Source: Octopus vulgaris
Taxonomy: Eukaryota
Assembly (NCBI GenBank): GCA_951406725.2
Contig: OX597817.1
Coordinates: 19,716,001-19,780,000 of the forward strand
DNA: 64,000 nucleotides
Reading direction: 5' to 3'
Within the stretch, counting starts at the first letter, position 1. Each line of letters opens with the position of its first letter. Below the pieces are notes generated by a model. It had not been told where the DNA came from. It made no database searches and saw only the letters and a list, made by a program, of their open reading frames with translations. Positions 7,216 through 28,935 of the stretch are shown here, piece after piece. The translations under genes and the position numbers were made by a program.

Positions 7216-7419
7216 TATCTATACAATAATATGTTACATTACTCGATAGTCAAGATAAAACTCTGAGTTTCAGATGCCGAAGTGGGAATCCACGACATCT
7301 CTTCGGTTATCTGGCTATTTTCAAATAACCGAAGAGAGGTCGTGGATTCCCACTTCGGCATCTGAAACTCAGAGTTTTATCTTGACTATCGAGTAATGTA
7401 ACATATTATTGTATAGATA
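7216..7419. repeat. Long inverted repeat (95-bp arms, 14-nt spacer) carrying mirrored hammerhead-like motifs
   Basis: 7216-7310 is the reverse complement of 7325-7419 with one mismatch (agatgtcg vs agaggtcg). (TA)n lies on the left. Confidence 0.95.
7253..7312 (-). ncRNA. Hammerhead-like motif with CCGAAGA core (mirror copy on + strand at 7325-7380)
   Basis: AGATAA-CCGAAGA-GATGTCG...CGGCATC-T-GAAA-CTC a GAG-TT-TTATCT. 6-bp helix I, 7-bp helix II, short helix III, GUU triplet. U4 is replaced by C and there is one extra nt before GAAA. Confidence 0.55.
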
Positions 7420-7614
7420 AATGTCCTCAATTTACATAATATTGAGGTCTCTTTCTTTCTTTTGTTATCTTACCGTTTTACCAATATATATATACACACA
7501 CACACACAAATATATACATACATCCATATCAAAAAGCAGTTTGAATTTCAGGATAGGAAATGTCGATGGTTGTGTCAAAATGGATATTTATACACCCCCC
7601 ACACACACATGTCT

Positions 7615-7850
7615 ATTTATTTCATTATTGCCCAGAGGGGGCTAAACATAGAGGAGGAAAACAAGGACAGACAAGCAGATTAATTCGATTACATAGACTC
7701 TAATGTGTAACTGGTACTTATTTAATCGATCTCCAAAGGATGAAAGGCAAAGTCGACCTCACCAGAATTTGAAGTCAGAACGTAACGGCTGACGAAGTAC
7801 CGCTAAGCATTTCATCTGGCGTGCTAACAATTCTGTCAGCTCGCCGCCTT
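7615..7850 (-). mobile_element. tRNA-derived SINE family A, copy 1 of a tandem pair
   Basis: Reverse complement of the 12671-12900 sequence; ends at cagctcgccgcctt. Confidence 0.9.
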
Positions 7851-7859
7851 ACGGGAGAC

Positions 7860-8097
7860 GAAATACCTATTTTTTACTAGCCACACGGGGCTAAACACAG
7901 AAGGGACAAACAAGGATAGACAAACGGATTAAGTCGATTACATCGACCCCAGTGCGTAAGTGGTACTCAATTTATCGACCCCGAAAGGATGAAAGGCAAA
8001 GTCGACCTCGGCGGTATTTGAACTCAGAACGTAACGGCATACGAAATACGGCTACGCATTTCGCCTAGCATGCTAACGTTTTGTGCCACTCCGCCAG
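7860..8097 (-). mobile_element. tRNA-derived SINE family A, copy 2 of a tandem pair
   Basis: ggggctaaacacaga..atcgaccccagtgcgtaa..ccgaaaggatgaaaggcaaagtcgacctcggcgg..gaactcagaacgtaac. Confidence 0.9.
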
Positions 8098-8487
8098 ACT
8101 CACGAGCATGTTTATTAGTACACACGTATGCACACACACACACACATATTGGCACAATAATATTTATTGTAGTCATGAAAATAAACTTTTGCAAATAAGT
8201 TTATTTACCAATCGCTTTCCAAAAGGAAATGATTAAAAAGCATTAAATGGTGAATATATTATACAAATATCCTGAGATATTTAGTGTTTCGCTGGAAACA
8301 TTCACGTAACACTACGTGGATGAATATGCTTTATGCAAATAAATACATTATCAATGGAAGTGGTATGCGACAGTCGTGTTTTTATTCAGCATTTTGTGCA
8401 TATTTCGTTTGCGATTTGAAGTGTTGCACTTGTTTTGAAAAGTTGTTTTTTGTGTGTAGTGCAAACAAAATTTCCATACTAAATTAT

Positions 8488-8902
8488 AGGCGCAGGTGTG
8501 GCTGTGTGGTAAGTAGCATGTTTACCAACCACATGGTTCCAGGTTCAAACCCACTGTGTGGCACCTTCGGCAAGTGTCTTCTACTATAGCCTCGGGCCAA
8601 CCAAAGCCTAGTAAGTGGATTTGGTAGACGGAAACTGAAAGAAGCCCGTCGTATATATGTATATATATATGTATGTTTATGTGTGTGTGTTTCTGTGTCT
8701 GTGTTTGTTCCCCTAGCATTGCTTGACAACCGATGCTGGTGTGTTTATGTTCCCGTCACTTAGCTGTTCGGCAAAAGAGACCGATAGAATAAGTACTGGG
8801 CTTACAAAGAATAAGTCCCGGGGTCGATTTGCTCGATTAAAGGCGGTGCTCAAGCATGGCCGCAATCAAATAGATGAAACAAGTAAAAGAGTAAAAGAGT
8901 AA
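8488..8902 (+). mobile_element. tRNA-derived SINE family B, full length with internal microsatellite
   Basis: A box tggctgtgtgg, B box ggttcaaaccc, CORE/V-like ggcaccttcggcaagtgtctt, internal (TA)/(TG) tract, tail (gtaaaaga)n. Homologs at 37.2, 39.2, 40.3 and 56.1 kb. Confidence 0.92.
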
Positions 8903-28000: not shown

Positions 28001-28128
28001 AAATTTACAGGAAAAAATCAGATTTAGGATTAAATCCAATTTTATAGTAAAATATTATAAAATATTATTAGAGACAAAACCACTATTTTGCAAAACAAAC
28101 AAGGAAAGACAAATAGTCAAAAAAACCG

Positions 28129-28170
28129 CCACTACAATTGTTTCTGTCTTGATCGACAATCTTCAGGTGG
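28129..28170 (-). ncRNA. Type I hammerhead ribozyme, mirror copy
   Basis: Reverse complement of 28217-28259, lacking one A in helix II. Confidence 0.75.
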
Positions 28171-28216
28171 ACTTCCAATAAGTCAGTTTCAAATTTGAAA
28201 CTGACTTATTGGAAGT

Positions 28217-28259
28217 CCACCTGAAGATTGTCGATCAAGACAAGAAACAATTGTAGTGG
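28217..28259 (+). ncRNA. Minimal type I hammerhead ribozyme
   Basis: CCAC-CTGAAGA-TTGTC gatcaa GACAA-GAAA-CAATTG-TA-GTGG. 4-bp helix I, 5-bp helix II, palindromic helix III (ACAATTGT), GUA triplet. Confidence 0.85.
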
Positions 28260-28444
28260 CGGTTTTTTTGACTATTTATTAAAATTTTATGTATTGATTA
28301 AGTCTTTCCTTGTTTGTTTTGCAAAATAGTGGTTTTTCTCTAATAATATATATATATATATATATATATATATATATATATATATATATATATATATATA
28401 TATATATATATATATATACATATATATATATATGTATATATATT

Positions 28445-28935
28445 ATTTAGGACAAACAGTATGTTGTCATTATAGTACTGGGAGTTTCGGATGTCGGAGC
28501 GAAGAGCTACGATGCATTCTCGTCGGCTATTGATGACAATAGGCGCTATGAAAAACGTTGAATAAAAGGGAAGTAATTCTAACAAGTAGAAAAAAAAAAG
28601 AAAACGGAGAAAAAATACACGCAACCATGTTTGTGTGAGTGTGTACGTGTGTAGACGTTATGAACGCAGGAGGTATTATGTTTATATATTGTGAGAATAT
28701 TTTCATCTTTGTTTTCTTTTTAATACATATTTGAGTAACTTCCCTTTTATTTAACAGTTTTTCATAGCTTCTGTTGCCATTAATAGCCGACGAAAAGGAA
28801 TCGTAGCTCTTCGCTCCGATATTCGAAACTCCGAGTACTATAATTACAACTTACTGTTTGTCCTAAATTATAAATATACATATCTACATAATCCTCTATT
28901 TACCTAATATCGAGGTCTCATTATTTCGTTGTCAT
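28445..28935. mobile_element. Diverged inverted-repeat element (arms ~28445-28575 and ~28737-28868) with CCGACGA hammerhead-like motifs; related to the 7.3-kb element
   Basis: The arms are reverse complements with scattered substitutions. The tail cctctatttacctaatatcgaggtctc (~28893) matches cctcaatttacataatattgaggtctc (~7425). Confidence 0.8.
28783..28841 (+). ncRNA. Hammerhead-like motif with CCGACGA core (mirror copy on - strand at 28472-28530)
   Basis: ATAG-CCGACGA-[helix II with tcg/cga and agc/gct]-GAAA-CTC c GAG-TA-CTAT; GUA triplet. Confidence 0.6.

What the first reader, a model, noticed from the sequence alone, without database searches (positions are those of the whole stretch)
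7325..28935. Recurring non-canonical CCGANGA core in two related elements
Seen: the 7.3-kb and 28.5-28.9-kb elements are well diverged but share a C-C-G-A-N-G-A core, a GAAA-CTC-N-GAG-TH helix III, a long helix II, an inverted-repeat layout and a downstream cctcNatttacNtaatatNgaggtctc tail. All four arm copies have C at position 4. Established: U4 is normally nearly invariant in hammerheads. Inference: a family-level U4C hammerhead variant, either a new active core variant or a catalytically dead fold kept for another role such as RT recognition.
Basis: partly seen in the sequence, partly recalled or inferred. Interest (0 to 1): 0.72.

Follow-up and report, generated by a model that had tools for sequence, protein, structure and literature searches.

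The report
Active Penelope retrotransposon with C4 hammerhead
The two repeats are broken end-pieces of a jumping gene whose youngest, intact copies carry a hammerhead RNA motif with C in place of a usually fixed U; the letter likely switched twice in this family while the rest of the core stayed fixed, so the motif probably still cuts, slowly, but cutting is untested.

Summary
Observation confirmed. Both elements are ORF-less, head-to-head end remnants of one Hydra-clade Penelope-like retrotransposon family (unit about 2.58 kb; RT plus C-terminal GIY-YIG). C at hammerhead position 4 is inherited, but at subfamily level: 4,664 genomic motifs have C4 and 3,539 have U4, against 225 for the CpG-decay control. 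Sixteen sequence clusters give two changes at position 4 and none at ten other core positions. The E1-side C4 lineage is the youngest: 30 ORF-selected loci average 99.3% identity and 60 of 62 motif hits there read C4. On C4-only steps, 28-33 non-core changes occurred and no core change, suggesting continued selection. Helices I and II show compensatory pairs. Helix III, long helix II, inverted layout and tail are ordinary for the clade. Natural U4C is known from a viroid; I found no paper on it in these elements. Insertion 5' ends do not pile up at the predicted cut site. This scan noted C4 Hydra families in this genome before. Cleavage is untested.

The parts
7217..7322 (-). Element 1 left arm: 5'-truncated inverted pseudo-LTR copy ending at the short 3' end in (TA)n; the only undamaged hammerhead of the four arms
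7253..7312 (-). Type I hammerhead, C4 core at 7306-7300, 28-nt helix II, palindromic helix III, predicted cut between 7259 and 7258
   Evidence: cut site inferred from hammerhead numbering
7313..7485 (+). Element 1 right arm: pseudo-LTR 3' end with C4 core at 7329-7335 (predicted cut after 7376), helix II mismatch, 8-nt deletion upstream, long 3' end into (TA)n; about 91% identical to the intact unit
7425..7451 (+). Conserved tail hairpin, shared by C4 and U4 subfamilies; likely the Penelope 'tail' between two reverse-transcription start sites
   Evidence: role inferred from PMC11167929
28423..28624 (-). Element 2 left arm: inverted truncated pseudo-LTR, C4 core at 28526-28520, helix III mismatch, predicted cut after 28476
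28689..28945 (+). Element 2 right arm: C4 core at 28787-28793, damaged helix II, predicted cut after 28837, long 3' end into (ATT)n
28893..28919 (+). Tail hairpin of element 2

Best explanation
The two elements are ORF-less head-to-head end remnants of a Hydra-clade Penelope-like retrotransposon whose type I hammerhead carries C4 in two subfamily lineages, and that hammerhead likely remains a slow, dimer- or protein-assisted ribozyme in the master copies. Shown: anatomy, clade motifs, subfamily states, a very young C4 lineage with intact ORFs, an otherwise invariant core. Inferred: U4 is ancestral and C4 arose twice; C4 is tolerated because a protonated C could keep the U-turn hydrogen bond; two tandem pseudo-LTRs pair through the palindromic helix III and, helped by the element's protein, cut at low rate; most insertions use uncut RNA, so a slower ribozyme costs little. 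The window copies themselves are likely inert, since each arm pairs with its own inverted partner.
For: ORF with RWK, DKT, CxCX5C, CxxC and CxH motifs, 2,580-bp unit, (TA)n targets. 4,664 C4 and 3,539 U4 motifs, 225 for the G5-to-A decay control. Hand counts of the first 100 listed matches with the core left free: E2 type 82 C4, 17 T4, 15 with A5, i.e. symmetric CpG decay from C4; youngest type 62 of 64 C4, next older type 19 of 21 T4; middle types 96 of 100 T4. Tree of 16 clusters from 245 copies: 2 changes at position 4, 0 at 10 other core positions, 0 at 6 helix III positions, 78 in 66 other columns. C4-only steps: 33 non-core differences (28 counting shared ones once), 0 core. Fourfold sites between the two C4 lineages differ at 48-62%. 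62 near-full protein matches; 30 loci average 99.3% DNA identity; 60 of 62 motif hits there have the C4 core, 2 lack that part. Literature: U4C lowers activity in vitro but suffices for viroid infectivity (PMC3088659); a PLE hammerhead cuts only with protein and its cleavage is not needed for insertion in vitro (PMC11167929); protonated C can replace U in a U-turn (PMC4105743; shown for a riboswitch, not a hammerhead).
Against: No cleavage data. Genomic 5' junctions are no more frequent at the predicted cut site than 10 nt upstream, in C4 copies (about 37 vs 35) or U4 copies (about 32 vs at least 26), so there is no footprint of cutting in either. In a pairwise-mutagenesis study all single mutants in the U-turn region showed low activity (PMC9901934). 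The youngest lineage can also pair its core with helix II (gap to the open-core fold 5.9-6.4 kcal/mol against 1.4 in its immediate C4 precursor), which points to further loss. Core conservation cannot separate catalysis from protein binding. The selection test uses majority sequences, non-independent columns and, for the youngest clusters, many loci picked by a core pattern. Protein rooting was inconclusive.
Confidence: 0.55

Rival explanations
1. C4 kills catalysis, and the fold is kept as a binding or positioning element for the RT-endonuclease protein or for RNA dimerisation.
For: Hammerhead catalytic mutants did not affect insertion in vitro and no RNA ends were seen at the cut site for an anole PLE; no junction pile-up here; U-turn mutants have low activity; competing fold in the youngest lineage.
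Against: G12, G8, G5, A9, A13, A14 and a non-G at position 17 are all kept on C4 branches; natural U4C is viable in a viroid that needs cleavage; the best candidate for RT recognition is the separate tail hairpin.
Confidence: 0.25
2. Cleavage is dispensable and C4 drifted to fixation in single master elements; the rest of the core has simply not yet been hit.
For: Copies descend from few masters, so one hitchhiking change fixes a subfamily; Naiad elements amplify without a canonical hammerhead.
Against: About 4-5 core changes are expected on C4-only steps at the non-core rate and none is seen (P about 0.007-0.014; with helix III about 0.001 or less, lower count by my arithmetic); the same position changed twice.
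Confidence: 0.14
3. C4 was favoured because it weakens a monomer misfold in which the U4 core pairs with the helix III loop; it co-occurs with a loop change in the young lineage.
For: Position 4 and the helix III loop base change on the same step; in cluster c15 the gap to the open-core fold is 1.4 kcal/mol with C4 and 4.6 with U4.
Against: The effect is 0-1.5 kcal/mol and of mixed sign in the other C4 lineage; relatives elsewhere combine U4 with the same loop base; one event only.
Confidence: 0.04
4. The four C4 arms are chance mutations of a U4 consensus, or U4 copies are merely CpG-decayed C4 copies.
For: C4 creates a CpG, and some T4 copies in C4 subfamilies are decay products.
Against: Thousands of copies of each state sort by subfamily; the decay control is 225 against 3,539.
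Confidence: 0.02

Closest known systems
Hydra-clade Penelope-like elements and their hammerheads (Craig et al. 2021, PMC8557442; read section 11, passages, supplement part 2 with Files S1/S2)
   Same: Under 3 kb, single ORF, RWK, DKT, CxCX5C linker, CxxC and CxH, no CCHH, (TA)n targets, inverted truncated copies, tail at one end, type I hammerhead near the 3' end; the same helix III occurs in 5 listed families.
   Different: All 25 Hydra families with a listed hammerhead have U4 (27 families listed); the one octopus family there has another helix III and a 15-22 nt shorter layout, so this family is not that one. Helix II here is 28-31 nt.
Minimal PLE hammerheads (Cervera and de la Pena 2014, PMC4209133; read parts 1-2 of 4)
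   Same: Type I, short helix I, long helix II, palindromic helix III, predicted dimer activity, low activity in vitro, opposite-strand pairs 100-700 bp apart.
   Different: The core variant reported there is U3-A8; no C4 in the parts read. Their supplements were not read.
Natural U4C hammerhead of a viroid (Ambros and Flores 1998, seen only as cited in Perreault et al. 2011, PMC3088659, passages and section 8; original not held)
   Same: Same substitution; reduced activity in vitro, sufficient in vivo.
   Different: A variant of a plant RNA pathogen, not fixed in thousands of copies of an autonomous animal retrotransposon.
Poseidon element of Anolis, PAc (Frangieh et al. 2024, PMC11167929; read parts 1-2 of 4 and passages)
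   Same: Two 3' ends flanking a tail, AT-rich targets, pseudo-LTR hammerhead.
   Different: Other clade, canonical core, ORF starts inside the hammerhead; here the ORF starts about 210 nt downstream of the predicted cut.

Membership tests
Hydra-clade PLE | Under 3 kb, single ORF, RT with C-terminal GIY-YIG | tested here: met
   2,580-bp unit, 717 open codons; Pfam GIY-YIG only weak, E=0.014, below cut-off, no RT family hit; tested on genome copies, not on the window remnants, which have no ORF
Hydra-clade PLE | RWK, DKT, CxCX5C, CxxC, CxH present; CCHH absent | tested here: met
   read in P0001 against the definition
Hydra-clade PLE | Insertion into (TA)n; tandem and inverted truncated copies; tail at one end | tested here: met
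Hydra-clade PLE | RT phylogeny with named Hydra reference proteins | not tested
   homologues found at 41-52% identity are unnamed; reference proteins were not aligned
Hydra-clade PLE | Canonical hammerhead core with U4 | tested here: not met
   met in the middle subfamilies, not met in the two lineages present in the window; a described trait of the clade, not part of its protein definition
Type I hammerhead ribozyme | Three helices in type I order around the core | tested here: met
   RNAalifold on the mixed alignment returned no structure
Type I hammerhead ribozyme | C3, G5, A6, G8, A9, G12, A13, A14, A15.1-U16.1, H17 | tested here: met
   invariant in 16 of 16 cluster majorities; position 17 never G
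Type I hammerhead ribozyme | U4 | tested here: not met
   C in 4 of 4 window arms and 8 of 16 clusters
Type I hammerhead ribozyme | Match to an Rfam hammerhead model | tested here: not met
   none among 118 hits at E<=1, but the canonical U4 motif at 28221 is missed too
Type I hammerhead ribozyme | Site-specific self-cleavage | not testable with these tools
   indirect junction test negative for both C4 and U4; only contigs available

The most novel reading that the evidence does not exclude
C4 is a recurrent, selected alternative hammerhead core in animal retrotransposons: a protonated-C turn, completed by the element's own RT-endonuclease, makes cleavage conditional on protein binding, and an autonomous element with this core is transposing now.
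Probability: 0.2. Interest if true: 0.75.

Novelty: new variant of a known kind. Interest (0 to 1): 0.45.

Why it matters
What PLE hammerheads do is an open question. This family offers natural matched pairs: an intact, very young C4 element and close U4 sisters, with a second, likely independent C4 lineage. Either result informs: cleavage would show that U4 is replaceable in an animal retroelement and that standard descriptors miss thousands of ribozymes; no cleavage would show an autonomous PLE amplifying with a dead ribozyme whose core is still conserved. The window copies themselves are ordinary debris.

Tried and rejected
Rfam scan: no hammerhead hit. RNAalifold on 34 mixed sequences: no consensus structure, because helix II shifts register by one base between lineages. 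Junction pile-up at the predicted cut site: none in C4 or U4 subfamilies; the U4 control pattern was narrower than intended, and the classes are rough. Rooting by endonuclease protein tree: decayed copies give long branches and the root falls on the intact copies, so it was not used. Post-insertion core decay rates were discarded because many loci were picked by core patterns. One search had a one-column offset and was redone. One row of the tail alignment (L031) was mis-cut. Sequencing runs: no RNA holder on record, contigs only, so no ends, strand or expression. Papers not held: Ambros and Flores 1998, Lunse et al. 2016, Nelson and Uhlenbeck 2008; Lunse et al. treat PLE hammerhead variants and may bear on novelty. 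R-scape is not available. Subfamily sorting against hand-chosen references was not done; unsupervised clustering stands in its place.

Full report
Observation. The window holds two fold-back elements, about 7217-7485 and 28423-28945. Each arm carries a type I hammerhead layout with C at position 4. The elements are 50-57% identical over the motif. The tail follows the right arm only. Three of four arms carry private damage. No ORF remnant lies in the window. The genome is 2.8 Gb; it is probably an octopus, which rests on my recall of a repeat and on earlier scan notes, not on a call of mine.

What the element is. Tandem copies elsewhere have a 2,580-bp period and a 717-codon open frame. The protein has the motifs that define the Hydra clade of Penelope-like elements in PMC8557442 section 11; Pfam gave only a weak GIY-YIG hit; 840 homologues were found among 7,995 candidates scored. 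The first window element matches this unit at about 91%. Inverted truncated copies and a tail at one end are typical PLE structure. The 3' ends cluster at two places, about +31 to +43 and +100 to +110 from the predicted cut (30 of 31 ends listed in that range), with the conserved tail hairpin between them, as described for an anole PLE.

Is C4 inherited? With the finding's helix III, the genome has 4,664 C4 motifs, 3,539 U4 motifs and 225 motifs with G5 changed to A, the mirror product of CpG decay; controls gave 2, 2 and 5. So U4 copies are not decayed C4 copies. With the core left free, hand counts of the first 100 listed matches were: E2 type (141 matches) 82 C, 17 T, 1 A at position 4 and 15 with A5; young types (4,793 matches) 62 of 64 C in the youngest, 19 of 21 T in the next older, and 6 C, 8 T, 1 G in 15 intermediates; middle types (760 matches) 96 T, 1 C, 3 A. 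C4 is therefore a subfamily trait.

History. 467 profile hits in the fetched loci gave 245 distinct, well-covered copies. Clustering with positions 4 and 5 masked gave 16 clusters, 8 C4 and 8 U4. Their tree is a ladder with C4 at both ends and U4 in the middle: 2 changes at position 4, 0 at ten other core positions, 0 at six helix III positions, 3 each at position 7, position 17 and the helix III loop, and 78 in 66 other columns. Copy divergence is mostly higher in the middle (6.5-7.7%) and falls to 2.0% on the E1 side and about 5% on the E2 side, with one mixed C4 cluster at 8.2%. Outgroups carry U4: 25 published Hydra families, and 55 of 78 metagenome loci of related proteins, with 2 more showing the U3-A8 variant and 21 no motif; one C4 motif there lies upstream of the ORF and looks like another element's. 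Two independent gains are the simplest reading; gain, loss and regain is not excluded, since protein rooting failed.

Activity of the C4 lineage. A protein search returned 62 near-full matches at 96-100% identity, 54 without an internal stop. The 30 loci fetched average 99.3% DNA identity, and 60 of 62 motif hits in them have the C4 core, the other 2 lacking that part. These loci were chosen by ORF, not by core. An autonomous C4 element has thus amplified very recently.

Selection. On steps between C4 clusters there are 33 non-core differences (28 with shared ones counted once) and none in the ten core or six helix III positions; Poisson P is 0.007 to about 0.014 for the core alone (second value my arithmetic). 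Fourfold-degenerate sites differ at 48-62% between the two C4 lineages on 20-46 sites per pair (leaving out one frameshifted and one weakly aligned copy). Compensatory pairs: the helix I pair next to the core is A-U in 20 and G-C in 13 of 34 sequences; 6 of 21 pairs change on both sides in one lineage and 4 of 18 in the other, above shuffled and slid controls. These count sequences, not events; I estimate about five independent events, and the sequences were 2-3 hand-picked clean copies per cluster. Helix III never varies, so it gives no covariation support.

Against retained cleavage. Junctions at the predicted cut site are no commoner than at a control site: C4, 59 matches with 19 of 30 examined true junctions, against 41 with 17 of 20; U4, 44 with 22 of 30, against 26 with 20 of 20 under a narrower pattern. 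The test is blind, as canonical sisters are negative too. The youngest sequences can sequester the core in a competing hairpin. U-turn mutants were of low activity in PMC9901934 (passages).

Mechanism. I commit to a slow, dimer- or protein-assisted ribozyme (0.55). The dimer model comes from PMC4209133 and the self-complementary helix III (duplex -7.4 to -9.7 kcal/mol). Protein assistance and dispensability for insertion in vitro come from PMC11167929. Tolerance of C rests on the viroid case as cited in PMC3088659 and, by analogy only, on protonated C in a riboswitch U-turn (PMC4105743 and PMC6061696, abstracts and passages). All of these steps are inferred.

Novelty. Searches for hammerhead with U4C, with Penelope, with octopus, and with U-turn and cytidine found no paper on C4 hammerheads in PLEs. 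Three relevant papers were not held and the supplements of PMC4209133 were not read. Other papers seen: part 1 of bioRxiv 10.64898/2026.07.22.740005, passages of PMC7229834, PMC6765202, PMC3376415, PMC13481778; none changed the reading. This scan has already noted C4 Hydra families in this genome and U4C in phages; those notes are unchecked and are not counted as support. Verdict: new variant of a known kind, interest 0.45.

Noticed in passing
window 28071-28340: A third fold-back element directly beside element 2, with canonical U4 type I hammerheads at 28221 (+) and 28166 (-); likely another PLE family.
   Followed up: partly
window 5170-5250 (-): Canonical-core type I hammerhead-like motif with a 47-nt helix II region, core at 5240.
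   Followed up: no
L046:4249-4408 and 4160-4289: Single contigs from guessed-RNA runs carry clusters of A>G or T>C changes over the ORF end, as A-to-I hyper-editing of either strand would give; unverified, could be older copies.
   Followed up: no
L046:3873-3943: A run labelled as another organism (E) holds a contig like the intermediate subfamily with no change listed at position 4; weak hint that C4 is not private to this assembly.
   Followed up: no
L156:2400, L168:2103: U3-A8 core variant in two metagenome Hydra-like elements.
   Followed up: no
L152:2168: A C4 hammerhead of Poseidon-like shape upstream of a Hydra-like ORF in a metagenome contig; single copy.
   Followed up: no
window 18656-21596 and 46484-46996: Broken frames resembling LINE endonuclease and reverse transcriptase (family by recall).
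   Followed up: no
window 7609-8100, 12668-12910, 42891-43058: Copies of a roughly 240-nt dispersed SINE-like repeat.
   Followed up: no
P0001 RT motif: The catalytic motif reads YKDD in the intact copy.
   Followed up: no
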